Part shown: piece by piece, positions 18,001-57,000 of the stretch
Numbering within the stretch: the stretch's first letter is position 1
How the letters are laid out: every line of letters starts with the position of its first letter
DNA from: Podarcis tiliguerta
Lineage: Eukaryota
DNA length: 64,000 nt
NCBI GenBank assembly: GCA_965153285.1
Contig: OZ229111.1
Reading direction: 5' to 3' (one strand)
Made by a program: the position numbers

Positions 18001-21000
18001 TTCTTCATTTCAAGCATCCAAGCTGAACAAAATACAAAATGCAATGTCAGGGCAAAAGCTTAATCTGATCTTTCTATCCCTTTTAGCTCTATGGGCTTTG
18101 TTGACAGTGCAAGGTAAGGGGGCTGACAGTAATGGATTTTATTATCAGCACTGCATCTTTAATAATTGAAAAGTTGTTAGCTGCACAGGCAAGGAGGAAT
18201 GGTTTTAGTGCATTGATCTTTTAAGCTGGCAATGATCATTTAAACAAACAAGCAGCAAAATCATATATTGGCCAGGGTCCTCCTTATCTTGCAATTTACT
18301 TTAAAGAGAAAGGTTGCAAATGCCTTTATTTCCAAAACAACCTAATGCCAGGCAATCTCTGCCAGGGAACAGGGTCTCCAGCCTGCAGCTCCAGAAAGCC
18401 CTTCAACATACCAGTCAACAGGTAGCCTCACAGGCAGAGTCCCCTGGAACTCCTTGGCAGGCTCTATTCCATGGATTCAGCACAGGATCACAAAGCCCCG
18501 AAGGACGCTTGCCTGGCAAGCAGAATTCCCTTTAAGCAAAGTGCTTCCTCCCACAGAGCTCCCCTGCATGCCTCCCTGATTAAAAGTCTCACTTCGGCAT
18601 TTCTTTATGATTGTAAAACTCTCATCTGAAGAGGGCTCCCATGGGCACACAGACAGAAACAATAAATCCAAACAGACAAGTGAGGTAACAGGGAAAGAAG
18701 CTGGCACCAAGGCCAACAACCACAAAATGTGAGAGAGTGAGACATCTAAAGGTTCTTGGACACAACCTAGCTAGCACAGGCTAAGAATCAATGGCCCATC
18801 TAGTCTAGAATCCTGTTCTCACAGTGGCCAACCATATGCCTGTCAGAAACCCATAAGCAAGACCTGAGCATAAGAGCCCCGTGACTGTGCCCCATCTCCA
18901 CGGGAGTTTCCAGCACCTGGTATTCAGAAGCATCATTGCAGCGGTTCTCAACTTGCGGGTCCCCAGATGTTGTTGGACTACAACTCCCATCACCCCTGAG
19001 CTCTGGCCTTGCTAGCTAGGAGTGATGGGAGTTGTAGTCCAACAACATCTGGGGACCCACAGGTTGAGAAAGGCTGCATGATTGCCTCTGACTGTGAAGG
19101 GAGAACCAAACCATGATAGGCAACAGCCACTGATAGTCTTCTCTTCAACACAGATGTTCAATCCTTTTTAAAAGCCATCCAAGTTGGTGGCCTTCGCTAA
19201 ATCTTATGGGAGAGAATTCCATAGTTTAATAATGTGCTGCATGAAAAAGTATTTTCTGTTATCTGTCCTGAATCTTCCAACATTCAGCTCCACTGGATGG
19301 CCATAAGTTCTAGTGTTAGGAGAGAGGGAGAAAAACTTTTCTCTAACCACTTTCTGCACAATAGACATAATTGCATAAACTTCTATCATGTGACCTTTTC
19401 TCCAAACTAATAAGTGTCAAACACTACAACCTTTCCTAATAGGACAGTCATTCCACCTCCTTTATCATTTTGGTCCCCCTTTTTTGAACCATTTTCCCAA
19501 CTCTAAAATATCTTTTTTGAGGCAAGACAACCAGAATTGTACACAGCATTCCAAATGTGGCCAAAGCACAGATTTCTATAATGACATTGGGATACCTGCA
19601 GGTTTATTTTCCATTCCTTTCCCTAATGATTCCTAACATGAAATTTGCCTTTTGCATAGCTGCCACATGTTGGGTGGACATGTACATAGAACTACAATAC
19701 AACCCTGACATCTTGTTCCTGGTTAGTCGCCATCAGTACATACCACATGAGCATATATGTGAAATTAAGGAGTTGTTTGTTTGTTTGTTTTGCTCTGACA
19801 TGTATTGCTTTACACTTATTTACACTGAATTGCATTTGCCATATTACTGCCTATTCTTTTGGTTTTGGAAAGGTCATTTCGGAGCTCTTCACAATCTCTT
19901 TTTGTTATGACAACGCTGAATGATTTACTATCACCAGCAAACTTGGCCACCTCACTGCCAAGTTTAAACAACTTCTGAAAGACCTGGAAGGGTCCAAGAT
20001 TTCTAGAATCACCTGGAAGAAATGTCTTTTTGAAGGTTCACAACTAGGAGGCAATCCCTTTCACCACACTGGGATCACCAGCAAGAAGGGGCCATGGTTC
20101 CCAATTTTGAAGGCAGGCTCATAAGAGCGACTAGGTTAAATAAATGGAAAGACACACACACACTGCACCCAAGAAATAAAGCCTATCTAACCCAGTGGTT
20201 TACACATCGGGCATCTTGAGAGACTTAAATTGATGAGTGACAGGATGCAGAAGAAGAGCACATTAAAGTCCTGGATTGATTTCCTCATCCACACCGAAAA
20301 GATGAAAAGATTCATTGTTATTTAAATGTTTAGTAGTACTTCATGCGCAAGAGCTTCACTGTCGGTGGCCAAAACCACGTGATGAGAACTGATGAGAGAG
20401 ATACGACGACTTGCCCAAGTCCACCCTACAAGTTGGTGGCTAACCAGGAATCAGAAACCGGCTCTGTCGAGGTTCAAACCCATCCGACCCATATCTAAGG
20501 AAGCATGGCTCATCTGAGTCCTTCCCCACTCCGCCGCCCCGCTTTTGGTTAGCCAAACCAGCGCCGGGATCCGGCCTCGGGAGCACAGGCAGCAGCTGCG
20601 ACTCTCGCCACCATCTGGACCGCGATGGGGGGGAAAGAGATGCGAGCAGGAGGTGGGGGAGCTCGCGCAGCCCCTCCTCAGCCGCACTCCCGAGGCGCGC
20701 AGAGACCGGCGGCTCTCTCTCTCTTTCCCCCCAGCACCCCAAGCACCGAACCCTCCTCAGGCTGCGCGCCACCCCGCGCAGGAAAAGCGAGGACTCGGGT
20801 GGGGGTTTGTTTTCCTTTTTACCTGAAGCGACTCGTTGGCCATCTTCCCGCCAAGCTCCGGCTGGCTTCCTCCCCGCCTTCTCGCTGCTGCTGCTCCTGG
20901 GGCAGCCTCTGCTGCTCCCCAGGGCTGCCCTTACAACAGCAGCAGCAGAAGAAGGAGCAAGAGCCGTCGTCGATCCGCCATCCTCTGGTTGGTGGGGCGT

Positions 21001-54000: not shown

Positions 54001-57000
54001 TGACGCCTGTGAAGCATTGGGAGAGTGGATGCTGGACATCATGTCAATGGCTACCTCCAGGTGCAGGCATCTGCAAGGGGAAAAGAGGTGTCAGAAACTA
54101 ACTTGAGGAGGTCCTTAAGAGGTAAGAAGTCTCCCTAAAAACATTTGCTTAGGGAACCCAGCACATTTCCCTAAAAAAATTCTCCTTTGCCCTGGATTCT
54201 GCTCTGGAGCAGAGGGAAGAAGCGTGCCTGAGGAGGTTGAAAGTGCACTTCCTGCCCACCAGAATCTTCCGTTGGGAGCTACAAATCCAGCAGATGAGAA
54301 TTGCTGTTCCTTCCCAGCTCCTACGGAATCCAAAGCAAGAAGAAGCCGGTTTTTATCCTGTCCCCTCAGTAATTACTTTTCTGACTATCAAACTGATTCT
54401 CCTTAAATCCTCTTTCGTCTTGCCATATAATCTGACTTTCCACCTTCCCATTCCTTGTGTTTCATGTCCTCAAATTTGCAAGGAAATGCTGGACAGAACT
54501 ATGTGCATTTTAGATACTTTAATTAAATGGTGATGGTGGTGATAAGGAAGGAGCCTGGGGGAGGGAGGGAGGGACCTTGAAAGACTTTAGCAACTGAAAG
54601 TCAAGGTGCTGCACCTACAGTGCTGAGGAACTAGAGCACTCTTGGCCTTTTTGTAAAGGAATACACTTGGTTGGTCCTTCCCCCAGCAGTTTTGGATCAG
54701 GGATTGTACAGAATGGAGACCCACACATGAGAGAAAATTGGGGAATACTAATTAGGAGAATTATAATACTGTGTCTCATTTTAACTAACATTTTTTGAAA
54801 TGTCATTTAAAGTTACTGTTTCTCCCACCACATTTTTGCCAGCTAAGAAATATAAATGGAATGCTGGTTAGTTTGTTATATTATCATTTTACATGTAAAC
54901 ATGATTAGCTTAATATAACAAACACAAAGCCTGCGACACATTCTTTATCAAGTTTTTGGATTGTACGTCATCACAAAATTAAACAAAAAAGCAAAACATG
55001 ATGAGGACAAGTTGGGTCTGTTCCTGGGAACTGGCATCTACTCTCTCAACGGTCATCAGATCTCAAACTTTCTGAAAACAAAACAGAAAAGCCTGTAATT
55101 TGTAATAAGGAATCCGGGGTGGAAACCTGGGGACTGCAGGCCAGTTAATTTAATGTCTGCCCTGGGAAAACTGGTAGAAAGTATTATTAAAGTAACCAAG
55201 CACATAGAAGAAGAAGCCTTGTTGAAGCAGAGGCAGCATGGCTTCTGCAAACGCAAGTCCTGTCTCATAAATCTATAAGAATTCTTTGAGAATTTCAGCA
55301 AGCATATAAATAAAGGTGATCTGGATGACATAGTGTGTTTGGACTTTCAAAAAGCTATCATCAAAGACTCCTGAGTAAGTTTAGCAGTCATGGCATCAGA
55401 AGAGAGTTCCACTTCTTGAACAGGAATTAGTTAAGTAGCATAAAGCAGAGAGTAGGAATAAACAGACAGTTCTTCCACTGGAGGGATGTAGAAAGTAGAG
55501 TCCCCCAAGGACCTGTGTTTATTAACCTGGTCATGAACAATCTAGAGGTAGGGGTGAACAGTGAGGTGGCTGATTATATTTAATTGTCCAGAGTAATTAA
55601 AAACAAAAGGAGATCACGAAGACCTCCCAAAAGACCTATACAAATGCAGTGAATGGGTGGTAAAATAGCAGATGTAATTCAGTGAAAACAAGCATAAAGT
55701 GATGAATGTTGGGACAAAAAAACCTTCATTTCTTGTATACGTTCATGGGGTTTGCATCATTAGTGACTCTCCAGGAATGACACCTTGGTCTCATAAGTAT
55801 ATAGCTCAATTAAGATGTCAACCCAGAGTGTAGCAACAGTGAAAATGGCATATTCCATGTTAGGAATCAATAGGAAAGGAAAGGGAAAATGCTAGGGATC
55901 AATAGCAAAGGAAAATAAAACTGCTGGCATCATAACGTCGTTATACAAATCTATGGTGCGACAGCATTTGGAATGCTGTGTACAGTTCTGATCACTTCAC
56001 CTCAAAAAGGATATTGTAAAGTTGGAAAAGGTTCACAGAAAGGCAACCAGAGTAATCAAACTCCCCTATGAGGAAAGGTTGTGGTATTTGGGATTTCTTA
56101 GTTTAGGGGGAAAGCAAGTAAGGGGTGACATGATAGACATTTTATAACATTACAGTATGCATGGCATGGATGCATAATTTATCCTTCTCTCATAACATAA
56201 GAACTCGTGGACATTCAATAAAGCTGAACATTGGAAGATTCAGGACAGGTAAAAGAAAGTGCTGATTCCTGCAGGAGGCAGTGATGGTCACCAACTTGGA
56301 GCATTAAACTATTTAATGGGAAATAAGTCTATAAATGGCTACTAGCCACAATGGAGGCTATGCTCTGCCTTCATGTACCATGGATACAGAGGACGGTCAG
56401 AGGCCTTATGCTTCTGAATACTGGTTGCTGGAAACCACAGGAGGGGAAAGTCTTTTGTGCTCAGATGCCGTTTGCTGATTTCTCACAGGCATCCGATTGG
56501 TCATTGTGAGAACAGGATGATGGATAAGGTGGGCCAGATTGGCCTGATACAGCAGGGCTCTTCTGATGTTATATAACAGTCTTAACATGGGGTGTGTCTC
56601 TCTGTGTGTATGTAACTGAAAATGAGTTTATCACCTAGCACAGCACTGAGTTGAACTTACTCATAAGTAAGTATGTTTAGGATTGCACACCAACTGCAGA
56701 CTTCAAGTCTTCGACAGAAGAGCTTTCTCTTTGACTCCCTTCTCACCATTTACATCTAGCTTGAGAAAAAATTACTGGGAACTAGAAAACTTGCTCACTT
56801 TTTGCGATACTTTAGTTGGTTCTAATAAAAGTATTGTGCAGCTGTGGATTTTAGATTTTTTTCTAATAGTTCAACACATGTACCTAACATTTGCATACAG
56901 TCTGAAAGAGAAACATGCTTTTCTTAAGATGGATGAGGCGTAGCGTTATAAAACAATATACTAGTACCAGAAGCAAGTTTCATTATTACGCTATAGCCAT

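What the first reader, a model, noticed from the sequence alone, without database searches (positions are those of the whole stretch)
20823..54042. Synteny points to a 2R whole-genome-duplication ohnolog of VCP
Seen: the VCP-like gene lies between PKN1 and PTGER1. Established (recalled): in human, PKN1-PTGER1-GIPC1-DNAJB1 are at 19p13.12, while VCP lies close to DNAJB5 at 9p13.3, and DNAJB1/DNAJB4/DNAJB5 are paralogs. Inference: this locus is the 19p13-paralogon copy of VCP, kept in squamates and probably other non-mammals, and lost in mammals. The 16 intron positions shared with VCP exclude a retrocopy.
Basis: partly seen in the sequence, partly recalled or inferred. Interest (0 to 1): 0.65.

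Follow-up and report, generated by a model that had tools for sequence, protein, structure and literature searches.

The report
Ancient second VCP gene beside EP1
This lizard window holds an intact second copy of the protein-unfolding ATPase VCP/p97 that arose before sharks and bony vertebrates split, still sits beside the same receptor gene in sharks and lizards, and was not found in mammals.

Summary
The VCP-like gene is real and intact: + strand, CDS 33054-49438, 18 coding exons, 17 GT-AG introns, 807 codons, all ATPase motifs present. Searched exon by exon, it belongs to an old clade (RefSeq 'TER ATPase-like', zebrafish-style name zgc:136908). That clade holds sharks, rays, ray-finned fishes, coelacanth, lungfish, caecilians, salamanders, turtles and squamates, and is sister to canonical VCP (support 100/99 under two models). 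AU tests reject a duplication within squamates or within tetrapods. The window carries the clade's state at 26 of 27 diagnostic columns. The right neighbour is PTGER1 (EP1), tail to tail. In 29 of 35 species where both contig lengths were shown, VCP-like and EP1 share a contig, and identifiers are consecutive in six species, including a cow shark. So an ancient, pre-gnathostome duplicate with conserved synteny is well supported. Three points are not shown. PKN1 is represented only by a 7-codon mini-exon. The whole-genome-duplication origin rests on a recalled 9p13/19p13 paralogon, with no cyclostome or amphioxus sequence sampled. Loss in mammals, birds and crocodilians is only an absence from lists, and one 86-member cluster was mostly unseen. 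The gene is annotated in databases, but my ten literature searches found no description of it.

The parts
20823..20843 (-). 7-codon ORF (MANESLQ) with ATG in a good context and a GTAAAA donor. Unverified.
   Evidence: No HR1, C2 or kinase exon was found in 1-21000.
20001..22000 (.). CpG-rich block, promoter-like, around the mini-exon
   Evidence: GC 0.55-0.61, CpG observed/expected 0.64-0.73
32001..34000 (.). CpG-rich block at the start of the VCP-like gene
   Evidence: GC 0.57-0.58, CpG observed/expected 0.68-0.77
33054..33073 (+). VCP-like coding exon 1 (ATG, 6 codons plus 2 bases)
   Evidence: No in-frame ATG lies upstream in the open frame.
34826..34937 (+). VCP-like exon 2 (N-terminal tail and start of the N domain)
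36249..36421 (+). VCP-like exon 3 (CDC48_N)
   Evidence: Pfam PF02359, 64.1 bits.
37107..37249 (+). VCP-like exon 4 (N domain), with 5 diagnostic clade-B residues
   Evidence: No Pfam hit when scanned alone.
38520..38650 (+). VCP-like exon 5 (CDC48_2; RGGMR at residues 156-160)
   Evidence: Pfam PF02933.
39154..39285 (+). VCP-like exon 6 (N-D1 linker)
40245..40347 (+). VCP-like exon 7 (D1 Walker A, GPPGTGKT)
40666..40799 (+). VCP-like exon 8 (D1 pore loop KLAGESE, Walker B IIFIDELD)
42208..42343 (+). VCP-like exon 9 (D1 sensor-1 region AATNR and the start of the arginine-finger stretch)
42707..42819 (+). VCP-like exon 10 (end of the D1 core)
43639..43803 (+). VCP-like exon 11 (D1 lid)
   Evidence: Pfam PF17862.
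44450..44572 (+). VCP-like exon 12 (D1-D2 linker)
44736..44948 (+). VCP-like exon 13 (D2 Walker A GPPGCGKT, pore loop MWFGESE)
45766..45944 (+). VCP-like exon 14 (D2 Walker B, ILFFDELD)
47546..47675 (+). VCP-like exon 15 (D2 arginine-finger stretch, LRPGRLD)
47912..48070 (+). VCP-like exon 16 (D2 lid)
   Evidence: Pfam PF17862.
48295..48446 (+). VCP-like exon 17 (C-terminal helices)
49333..49438 (+). VCP-like exon 18 (Gly/Ser-rich tail ending DDDLYN) plus the TGA stop at 49436-49438
52108..52392 (-). PTGER1 (EP1) coding exon 2 (TM7 and C-tail, 94 codons) plus stop. It lies tail to tail with VCP-like, about 2.7 kb from its stop codon.
53215..54042 (-). PTGER1 (EP1) coding exon 1 (276 codons, TM1-TM6), with a GTGAGT donor after TM6

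Best explanation
The window (a Podarcis-type lacertid) carries an intact, spliced gene for a second p97/VCP-type AAA+ ATPase.

What it is. The gene is the lizard member of an old vertebrate gene lineage, which I call clade B. RefSeq names its members 'transitional endoplasmic reticulum ATPase-like' and, in fishes, 'zgc:136908'. The lineage split from canonical VCP after the divergence from arthropods and nematodes and before sharks and bony vertebrates parted. It has since been kept in chondrichthyans, ray-finned fishes, coelacanth, lungfish, caecilians, salamanders, turtles and squamates.

Where it sits. It lies tail to tail with the EP1 prostaglandin receptor gene, a linkage that goes back to the gnathostome ancestor. 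Canonical VCP lies elsewhere: on another contig in Podarcis, and next to PIGO-type and TPR-type neighbours in fused gene models.

Origin. The most likely origin is one of the early vertebrate whole-genome duplications. That would make it an ohnologue of VCP in the 19p13.12-type block, paired with the 9p13.3-type block that holds VCP. This step is inferred from timing and recalled paralogon knowledge, and I put it at about 0.65. An ancient duplicate with conserved EP1 linkage I put at about 0.93. The overall confidence given below, 0.8, is for the statement as a whole with the origin step marked as 'most likely'.

How it works (inferred). It should act as a p97-like hexameric unfoldase. An N domain recruits adaptors, and two ATPase rings thread substrates through a pore lined by the D2 loop MWFGESE. 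A C-terminal tyrosine-bearing tail is kept. It evolves about four to five times faster than VCP, yet stays about 90% identical between lizard and shark. That points to a retained but partly diverged role, or to dosage back-up for VCP.
For: Gene anatomy: 18 coding exons, 17 GT-AG introns and 807 codons. 797 of 800 in-frame residues are identical to the 807-aa P. muralis RefSeq 'TER ATPase-like' protein P0374.

Domains, each exon scanned alone: 9 of 10 exons hit CDC48_N, CDC48_2, AAA, AAA_lid_3, AAA, AAA_lid_3 in collinear order. Both Walker A and B motifs, both pore loops, the sensor and arginine-finger stretches and the DDDLYN end are present.

Exon 3 alone against 5.8 billion proteins: 14 of the 120 listed rows are at least 89% identical (7 squamate, 4 turtle, 2 amphibian, 1 coelacanth). 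Canonical VCP of Zootoca, Dermochelys and Latimeria is 84% identical.

Trees built from full-length named database proteins:
- Quick tree, 46 rows: clade B at SH-aLRT 100.
- Careful LG+G4 tree, 47 rows: vertebrates 100/98, clade A 100/99, clade B 100/99, with chondrichthyans inside B.
- Careful LG+C20+F+G4 tree, 42 rows: A 100/99 and B 100/99, with coelacanth and lungfish copies inside B.

AU tests: squamate-only duplication rejected (delta lnL 273, p 3.6e-07); tetrapod-only duplication rejected (delta lnL 191, p 1.9e-09); shark '-like' proteins grouped with canonical VCP rejected (delta lnL 43, p 0.0019).

Diagnostic columns: the window has the clade-B state at 26 of 27 and the clade-A state at 1.

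EP1 neighbour.

This includes scaffolds of 85 kb (Thamnophis), 155 kb (Protobothrops) and 696 kb (Crotalus tigris). Protein accessions or locus tags are consecutive in P. muralis, C. tigris, C. adamanteus, Caretta caretta, Phrynocephalus forsythii and the shark Heptranchias perlo.

Canonical VCP of lacertids lies on other contigs: 62.8 Mb in P. lilfordi, and at most 67.0 Mb across the shared four-species lacertid entry, against 123-127 Mb for VCP-like.

Constraint and rate: clade B is 90.3% identical between lizard and shark and 95.0% between lizard and turtle. Clade A is 98.9% between lizard and turtle and 99.3% between lizard and platypus.
Against: Sampling of outgroups: no cyclostome, amphioxus or tunicate VCP was retrieved. 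The duplication is bracketed only by arthropod and nematode outgroups, or arthropods alone.

Clade A: it holds no chondrichthyan sequence in my trees, so the presence of both copies in sharks rests on RefSeq's '-like' naming.

Paralogon: the argument (DNAJB1/4/5, PKN1/2/3, 9p13.3 against 19p13.12) is recalled and not tested. The one verified neighbour, EP1, has no chromosome-9 ohnologue that I know of.

PKN1: not verified. If the mini-exon is PKN1, its orientation differs from the human arrangement as I recall it.

Linkage: it was read from equal contig lengths and the order of identifiers, not from coordinates. 6 of the 35 species do not match (Eretmochelys, Megalops, Myxocyprinus, Arapaima, Anguilla, Scleropages); the five fishes among them are teleosts, which have two or more ptger1 genes. 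In several species the identifiers are far apart: Rhinatrema 454, Rhinoraja 267, Alosa 1131. In Hemicordylus, VCP and VCP-like appear to share one 429-Mb chromosome.

Method limits: rows for the trees were picked by hand, and the group for the third AU test was named after the tree had been seen. Function is wholly inferred, with no expression data.
Confidence: 0.8

Rival explanations
1. Ancient small-scale (segmental or dispersed) duplication of VCP in a stem gnathostome or stem vertebrate, not a product of whole-genome duplication. The link to the 19p13-type block would then be coincidental.
For: Only two copies exist. No paralogon gene pair was verified in the window. The trees give only a bracket between arthropods/nematodes and crown gnathostomes.
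Against: Recalled knowledge places several gene pairs between human 9p13.3 and 19p13.1, for example the DNAJB5/DNAJB1 pair beside VCP and beside PTGER1-GIPC1. Both stems are of similar length (0.086 and 0.11; 0.094 and 0.095). Both copies show 11 derived diagnostic states each, as expected of twin daughters of one event. None of this is decisive.
Confidence: 0.28
2. Recent duplicate of VCP confined to lacertids or squamates.
For: None was found. Before the searches, the roughly 87% identity to VCP could have been read as a fast-evolving young copy.
Against: Clade B holds sharks, fishes, amphibians and turtles. The AU test rejects squamate monophyly of the two copies (delta lnL 273, p 3.6e-07) and tetrapod monophyly (p 1.9e-09).
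Confidence: 0.01
3. Processed retrocopy or decaying pseudogene of VCP.
For: None.
Against: 17 canonical introns, an open 807-codon frame and every catalytic motif intact. The gene is 90% identical to the shark orthologue.
Confidence: 0.01
4. The window's gene is the true orthologue of human VCP, moved to a new place in squamates, and the other lacertid gene is the odd one.
For: None.
Against: Platypus, opossum, bird, turtle and lacertid canonical VCPs form clade A. The lacertid clade-A protein is 99.3% identical to platypus VCP. The window has the clade-A state at only 1 of 27 diagnostic columns.
Confidence: 0.01

Closest known systems
Canonical VCP/p97/Cdc48 (transitional endoplasmic reticulum ATPase)
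   Same: Same domain order: CDC48_N, CDC48_2 and two AAA modules with lids. Same Walker, pore-loop and arginine-finger motifs, the same C-terminal tyrosine tail, and about 87% identity.
   Different: It is a separate, sister lineage with 27 fixed differences: 10 in the N domain and linker, 5 in D1, 10 in D2 and 2 in the tail (domain limits recalled). It changes about 4-5 times faster. It has a different chromosomal neighbourhood (EP1 instead of PIGO/TPR-type neighbours) and one more intron than the 17-exon human gene.
RefSeq 'transitional endoplasmic reticulum ATPase-like' / fish 'zgc:136908' genes
   Same: The window's gene is the lacertid member. 797 of 800 residues are identical to P. muralis XP_028573113.2 (P0374), and it sits in the same clade as Megalops, Polyodon and Alosa 'zgc:136908'.
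   Different: Nothing of substance. Three residue differences (541, 590, 591) show the window is another Podarcis individual or species.
Bird W-linked 'VCP-like' (W/Z gametologue of VCP)
   Same: It is also annotated as 'VCP-like' or 'TER ATPase-like' (PMC4053838, passages).
   Different: It is a young gametologue inside canonical clade A; Melopsittacus '-like' falls in clade A. It is not the ancient clade B.
NVL, SPATA5 and other Cdc48-family members
   Same: Type II AAA+ ATPases of the same superfamily (PMC5070193, passages).
   Different: Those splits date to the origin of eukaryotes and the proteins differ in their N domains. The gene here is a vertebrate-age twin of VCP itself.

Membership tests
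p97/VCP/Cdc48 type II AAA+ ATPase | N domain made of CDC48_N plus CDC48_2 | tested here: met
   Exon 3 hits PF02359 (64.1 bits) and exon 5 hits PF02933 (30.9 bits), each scanned alone. Exon 4 gave no hit.
p97/VCP/Cdc48 type II AAA+ ATPase | Two tandem AAA modules, each with Walker A, Walker B and a lid | tested here: met
   GPPGTGKT with IIFIDELD, and GPPGCGKT with ILFFDELD. PF00004 is hit by exons 7, 8, 9 and by exons 13, 14; PF17862 by exons 11 and 16.
p97/VCP/Cdc48 type II AAA+ ATPase | Pore loops, arginine-finger stretches and a C-terminal Tyr-bearing tail | tested here: met
   KLAGESE, MWFGESE, LRPGRLD and DDDLYN. The motif patterns were recalled.
p97/VCP/Cdc48 type II AAA+ ATPase | Hexamer with ATP-driven unfolding activity | not testable with these tools
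   Inferred from about 87% identity to VCP. No fold or complex job was run, because a pass would only reflect likeness to solved p97.
Vertebrate clade B (TER ATPase-like / zgc:136908) | Clade-specific residues | tested here: met
   26 of 27 diagnostic columns carry the clade-B state, spread over 14 of 18 exons.
Vertebrate clade B (TER ATPase-like / zgc:136908) | Tree placement | tested here: met
   Near-identical database stand-ins (P0003 at 799 of 800, P0374 at 797 of 800) sit in clade B at 100/99 under two models. The window's own joined product was not built or placed.
Vertebrate clade B (TER ATPase-like / zgc:136908) | EP1 (PTGER1) as neighbour | tested here: met
   In the window the two genes lie tail to tail, 2.7 kb apart. 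29 of 35 species share a contig, and 6 have consecutive identifiers.
Canonical VCP orthologue | Clade-A residues and placement | tested here: not met
   1 of 27 diagnostic columns. 694 of 799 residues match Zootoca VCP against 799 of 800 for the Podarcis clade-B protein.
1R/2R ohnologue pair | Duplication node after the invertebrate split and before crown gnathostomes | tested here: inconclusive
   Met with arthropod and nematode outgroups. No cyclostome, cephalochordate or tunicate was sampled, and there is no shark in clade A.
1R/2R ohnologue pair | Both copies embedded in paralogous chromosome blocks (a paralogon) | not testable with these tools
   No vertebrate genome collection was available. 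The 9p13.3/19p13.12 pairs are recalled only.
Processed retrocopy | Intronless copy | tested here: not met
   17 GT-AG introns.
PTGER1 (EP1 receptor), right neighbour | Best match to EP1 among the prostanoid receptors | tested here: met
   PDB EP1 scores 271.8 bits, against FP 250.8, TP 165 and EP3 159.5. In one search every NCBI name that states a receptor type says EP1, except two 'PF2R protein, partial' rows (P0256, P0272). UniRef's automatic names often say thromboxane A2 receptor.
PKN1, left neighbour | HR1 repeats, a C2-like domain and an AGC kinase domain | tested here: not met
   No such exon was found in 1-21000 with recalled motifs. Only a 7-codon mini-exon is present, so the rest of the gene, if it is PKN1, lies outside the window.

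The most novel reading that the evidence does not exclude
Jawed vertebrates ancestrally run two p97 machines. The second, clade B, has kept a distinct job for over 400 million years, for instance through a different adaptor preference: 10 of its 27 fixed changes lie in the adaptor-binding N domain and linker. It may also form mixed hexamers with VCP. It would then buffer or modify vcp loss-of-function phenotypes in zebrafish and other non-mammalian models, and its loss in mammals left VCP as the sole, dosage-sensitive p97.
Probability: 0.25. Interest if true: 0.7.

Novelty: new member of a known kind. Interest (0 to 1): 0.5.

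Why it matters
VCP/p97 is among the most studied ATPases in cell biology and a human disease gene, and it is generally treated as a single-copy gene.

A second, highly conserved twin is present from sharks to lizards and was not found in mammals. Non-mammalian disease models such as zebrafish, axolotl, lizards and turtles would therefore carry a possible back-up or modifier. The zebrafish vcp knockout paper I checked has no occurrence of paralog, zgc, duplicat, ortholog or homolog (PMC9223409, term search).

It is also a clean example of differential loss of an old duplicate. 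It adds a marker gene to the PKN1-PTGER1-type block for reconstructing early vertebrate chromosomes.

For genome evolution as such, an old duplicate lost in mammals is an ordinary kind of finding.

Tried and rejected
The joined step was left out. Window sequence was used exon by exon, and full-length database proteins served as stand-ins.

PKN1. Recalled kinase, HR1 and C-terminal motifs found nothing usable in 1-21000. Pfam on the 57-aa ORF around the mini-exon gave nothing.

GIPC1. Recalled motifs found nothing right of PTGER1. Pfam on three ORFs at 58.5-60.4 kb gave nothing.

Other ORFs. Pfam on three ORFs between the two CpG blocks gave nothing. NCBIfam on the EP1 exons gave nothing, as expected of a prokaryote-centred library.

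RNA genes. Rfam at gathering thresholds gave 0 matches. ARAGORN found 0 tRNA genes.

Literature, all ten searches:
- 'VCP' + 'ohnolog': 0 papers.
- 'zgc 136908': 0.
- '136908' alone: 1,393 papers, noise.
- '136908' + 'zgc', matched anywhere: 0.
- 'ptger1' + 'gipc1' + 'synteny': 0.
- VCP or p97 paralogue phrases: 86 papers, 25 listed, none about this gene. PMC5070193 and PMC4053838 were read as passages; there 'VCP-like' means NVL, the archaeal VAT or the chicken W copy.
- 'vcp' + 'zebrafish' + 'paralog': 127 papers, 15 listed, none on it.
- DNAJB1/4/5 + 'whole genome duplication': 1 paper, the catfish Hsp40 paper PMC4277396. The 12 of 18 passages shown give no synteny for dnajb1 or dnajb5.
- 'VCP' + '17 exons': 9 papers, 8 listed, used for the exon count.
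- 'reticulum ATPase-like': 2 papers. One is a chicken study (listing only). The other is an icefish proteome table that lists one such protein under the symbol vcp, and I could not tell which clade it belongs to.

Hidden cluster members. Two look-ups of the 86-member cluster showed the same 15 members.

Unused tools. The search of protein representatives was not used, because clusters at 50% identity cannot separate the two clades. No fold, fold search, complex or atlas job was run.

Full report
Scope and rules. The window is 64,000 bases without any N. The joined step, meaning assembling the spliced protein and searching, folding or tree-building with it, was left out. Where a full-length sequence was needed I used named database proteins that the tools returned. 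No locus or contig was fetched and nothing was taken for human. No vertebrate genome collection was available (genome contigs holds bacteria and archaea only), so neighbourhoods in other species could be read only indirectly.

The gene. Stop-to-stop ORFs on the + strand between 33 and 49.5 kb show a series of VCP-like peptides. tblastn of the Podarcis muralis protein P0003 against the window gave a collinear chain of blocks. Codon-by-codon threading with a GT-AG junction search fixed 18 coding exons and 17 introns. The CDS runs from 33054 to 49435, with a TGA stop at 49436-49438, and has 807 codons. All 17 donors read GT and all 17 acceptors read AG. P0003 has a spurious N-terminal extension. 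The later RefSeq version P0374 (XP_028573113.2, 807 aa) starts at the same ATG as my model and matches 797 of 800 in-frame exon residues; the differences are at residues 541, 590 and 591. Ten exons were scanned alone against Pfam. Nine of them hit CDC48_N, CDC48_2, AAA (three exons), AAA_lid_3, AAA (two exons) and AAA_lid_3 in collinear order, and exon 4 gave no hit. Both Walker A and B pairs, both pore loops, the sensor and arginine-finger stretches and a DDDLYN end are present. With 17 introns and an open frame, a retrocopy or pseudogene is excluded.

Which VCP is it? Exon 3 alone (57 aa) was searched against 5.8 billion proteins, allowing longer proteins. Of the 120 rows listed, 14 are at least 89% identical. 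These are seven squamates (P. muralis at 100%), four turtles, a caecilian, a newt and a coelacanth fragment, mostly named 'transitional endoplasmic reticulum ATPase-like'. Canonical VCP of Zootoca, Dermochelys and Latimeria is 84% identical. Lacertids therefore have two genes, and the window holds the non-canonical one.

I then summed identities over the 18 in-frame exon pieces, each translated separately:
- P. muralis '-like': 799 of 800
- Crotalus '-like': 780 of 800
- Pelodiscus '-like': 759 of 800
- Rhinatrema '-like': 746 of 800
- Carcharodon '-like': 715 of 797
- Megalops zgc:136908: 718 of 797
- Zootoca VCP: 694 of 799
- Fundulus VCP: 689 of 799
- Tachypleus: 662 of 793

I defined 27 diagnostic columns: at least 90% of 26 clade-B rows share one residue, and all 8 clade-A rows share another. 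The window has the clade-B state at 26 of them and the clade-A state at one (residue 541), where P. muralis itself has the clade-B state.

Age of the split. A profile of eight slowly evolving clade-B database proteins (A1) was searched. 69 rows score above canonical Zootoca VCP (1753 bits). Three are long non-vertebrate proteins and two are unnamed. The other 64 are named vertebrate rows: 4 squamate, 4 turtle, 2 amphibian, 8 chondrichthyan (Heptranchias, Pristiophorus, Narcine, Carcharodon twice, Mustelus, Scyliorhinus, Rhinoraja) and 46 ray-finned fish, many named zgc:136908. None is from a mammal, bird or crocodilian.

I built three trees from hand-picked named proteins. I left out unnamed rows, the human fragment, most partial proteins and most of the many teleost and isoform rows.
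- The quick LG+G4 tree of 46 rows gives clade B SH-aLRT 100.
- The careful LG+G4 tree of 47 rows gives vertebrates 100/98, clade A 100/99 and clade B 100/99. Chondrichthyans (100/100) are sister to tetrapods plus ray-finned fishes (97/92).
- The careful site-heterogeneous LG+C20+F+G4 tree of 42 rows adds coelacanth, lungfish, axolotl, platypus, opossum and owl. It gives A 100/99 and B 100/99, with the deep order inside B unresolved.

AU tests on the data reject three alternatives: all squamate copies as one clade (delta lnL 273, p 3.6e-07), all tetrapod copies as one clade (delta lnL 191, p 1.9e-09), and shark '-like' proteins grouped with clade A (delta lnL 43, p 0.0019). The group for the third test was named after the tree had been seen.

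There are limits. Outgroups are arthropods and nematodes only (arthropods alone). No cyclostome, amphioxus or tunicate sequence was retrieved. No canonical shark VCP is in clade A.

Neighbours in the window. On the - strand, the ORF 53167-54090 is a rhodopsin-type receptor (Pfam 7tm_1). Its first ATG is at 54042, which is the finding's end. Exon 1 (276 codons) ends at a GTGAGT donor after TM6, and exon 2 (94 codons) follows a CAG acceptor. Against solved structures, EP1 is best (9m1h_A, 271.8 bits), ahead of FP (250.8), TP (165) and EP3 (159.5). Against the protein collection, the best row is EP1 of Podarcis raffonei, listed at 100%. By position it has 2 mismatches in 370 residues, against 3 for P. 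muralis. The NCBI names in that list say EP1 wherever they name a receptor type, apart from two 'PF2R, partial' rows; UniRef's automatic names often say thromboxane A2 receptor. VCP-like and EP1 lie tail to tail, about 2.7 kb apart.

On the left, the finding's start (20823) is the last base of a 7-codon ORF on the - strand (20843-20823). It has a good ATG context and a GTAAAA donor, and it lies inside a CpG-rich block. In length and phase it resembles what I recall of the first coding exon of mammalian PKN1, but that is recall and not a test. No HR1, C2 or kinase exon was detected in 1-21000. PKN1 is therefore not verified. If the exon is PKN1, the gene runs leftwards out of the window, and its orientation relative to PTGER1 differs from the human one as I recall it. 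No GIPC-type signature lies right of PTGER1.

Neighbours elsewhere, read indirectly. The protein tables give, for each protein, the length of its longest contig plus accession numbers or locus tags. For 35 species the outputs show a contig length for both a clade-B protein and an EP1 protein, and in 29 of them the two lengths are identical. The 29 are:
- 12 squamates: Crotalus tigris, C. adamanteus, C. horridus, Vipera latastei, Thamnophis sirtalis, Protobothrops, Erythrolamprus, Candoia, Hemicordylus, Phrynosoma, Phrynocephalus, Podarcis muralis
- 5 turtles: Chelonia, Caretta, Lepidochelys kempii, Carettochelys, Gopherus flavomarginatus
- 3 amphibians: Rhinatrema, Microcaecilia, Ambystoma
- lungfish and coelacanth
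- 3 ray-finned fishes: Polyodon and two Alosa species
- 4 chondrichthyans: Heptranchias, Mustelus, Rhinoraja, Amblyraja

The six that do not match are Eretmochelys, Megalops, Myxocyprinus, Arapaima, Anguilla and Scleropages. The five fishes are teleosts, which have ptger1a and ptger1b. I dropped Pantherophis/Pituophis from the count because one entry mixes two species.

Some shared contigs are small: 84,960 bases in Thamnophis, 155,163 in Protobothrops, 695,902 in C. tigris and 5.18 Mb in Polyodon. Identifiers are directly consecutive in six species: P. muralis (XP_028573113/114), C. tigris (XP_039205122/123), C. adamanteus (KAK9406741/742), Caretta (CAM2109716/717), Phrynocephalus (JRQ81_002351/002350) and the cow shark Heptranchias (XP_067829089/088). 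They are 3 to 22 apart in C. horridus, Phrynosoma, Mustelus, Lepidochelys, Pantherophis, Vipera and Gopherus. They are far apart in Polyodon (58), Chelonia (97), Rhinoraja (267), Carettochelys (332), Rhinatrema (454) and Alosa sapidissima (1131). That consecutive identifiers mean neighbouring genes is my inference from how such records are numbered, not a coordinate check.

Canonical VCP of lacertids lies on other contigs: 62.8 Mb in P. lilfordi, and at most 67.0 Mb across the shared four-species lacertid entry, against 123-127 Mb for VCP-like. In Hemicordylus both genes seem to share a 429-Mb chromosome. Fused gene models of canonical VCP carry TPR repeats (wallaby P0184) or a Phosphodiest domain of the PIGO type (lizard Elgaria P0404) upstream of VCP. 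That fits the FANCG-PIGO neighbourhood of human VCP as I recall it.

The whole-genome-duplication origin is not shown. The timing fits: the split came after the divergence from arthropods and nematodes and before crown gnathostomes. The two stems are similar in length (0.086 and 0.11; 0.094 and 0.095). Each daughter has 11 derived diagnostic states, with 5 undecided. But the paralogon itself (DNAJB1/DNAJB5 and PKN1/PKN3 between 19p13.12 and chromosome 9) is recalled knowledge. I put the whole-genome-duplication origin at about 0.65 and an older segmental copy at about 0.28.

Loss in mammals agrees with the lists and with general knowledge of the human genome, but it rests on absence. For birds, crocodilians and frogs it is open. 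The 90% cluster of the Chelonia protein has 86 members, of which I saw only 15, the same 15 both times. That cluster already mixes turtles, lacertids, axolotl, lungfish and coelacanth.

Likely function. Shown: the domain set and every catalytic motif of p97 are kept. Lizard and shark copies are 90.3% identical. The clade changes faster than VCP: 95.0% between lizard and turtle in clade B, against 98.9% in clade A. Inferred: a hexameric, ATP-driven unfoldase of the p97 type. The 27 fixed differences fall as 10 in the N domain and linker, 5 in D1, 10 in D2 and 2 in the tail (domain limits recalled), which leaves room for a changed adaptor preference. No expression or activity data were available.

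Novelty. The gene is annotated in RefSeq, UniProt and under a zebrafish-style name, so it is not unknown to databases. In the searchable library I found no paper that describes a second vertebrate VCP lineage (searches; passages read). A term search of the zebrafish vcp knockout paper found no occurrence of paralog, zgc, duplicat, ortholog or homolog.

Noticed in passing
window 8447-8604, 30677-30861 (-), 36700-36900, 37534-37719: An interspersed repeat of about 185 bases in four copies, 90-94% alike. Two copies lie in introns 3 and 4 of the VCP-like gene. It looks SINE-like, but ARAGORN found no tRNA and Rfam found no family.
   Followed up: partly
window 28616-28687: A (TAA)n microsatellite with 23.7 copies. 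A 16-base unit also occurs 2.9 times at 8397-8443, next to a repeat copy.
   Followed up: no
window 20001-22000 and 32001-34000: Two CpG-rich blocks lie 11 kb apart. The first holds only the 7-codon mini-exon on the - strand. Whether it also drives an upstream non-coding exon of VCP-like on the + strand is unknown.
   Followed up: no
window 48446/49333 and the whole gene: The gene has 18 coding exons, whereas human VCP is reported to have 17 exons (PMC10048343 passage). That makes one more intron than the human gene has in total. Which intron is the extra one could not be determined here.
   Followed up: partly
database proteins P0184 (Notamacropus) and P0404 (Elgaria): Fused gene models of canonical VCP carry TPR repeats or a Phosphodiest (PIGO-type) domain upstream. 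These are accidental witnesses of VCP's own neighbourhood in a marsupial and a lizard.
   Followed up: partly
database proteins P0342 and P0398 (Hemicordylus capensis): VCP-like and the canonical VCP group both show a longest contig of 429,459,696 bases, so in this lizard the two paralogues may lie on one very large chromosome.
   Followed up: no
window 44736-44948 and 45766-45944 (residues 541, 590, 591): Three residues differ from the P. muralis RefSeq protein. EP1 is nearest to P. raffonei, with 2 mismatches in 370. The window is therefore from a Podarcis-type lacertid other than the P. muralis reference.
   Followed up: partly
diagnostic columns of the VCP alignment: The outgroup majority agrees with clade B at 11 columns, with canonical VCP at 11 and with neither at 5. 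Canonical VCP is therefore not simply the unchanged ancestor: both daughters changed early, and VCP then nearly froze.
   Followed up: partly
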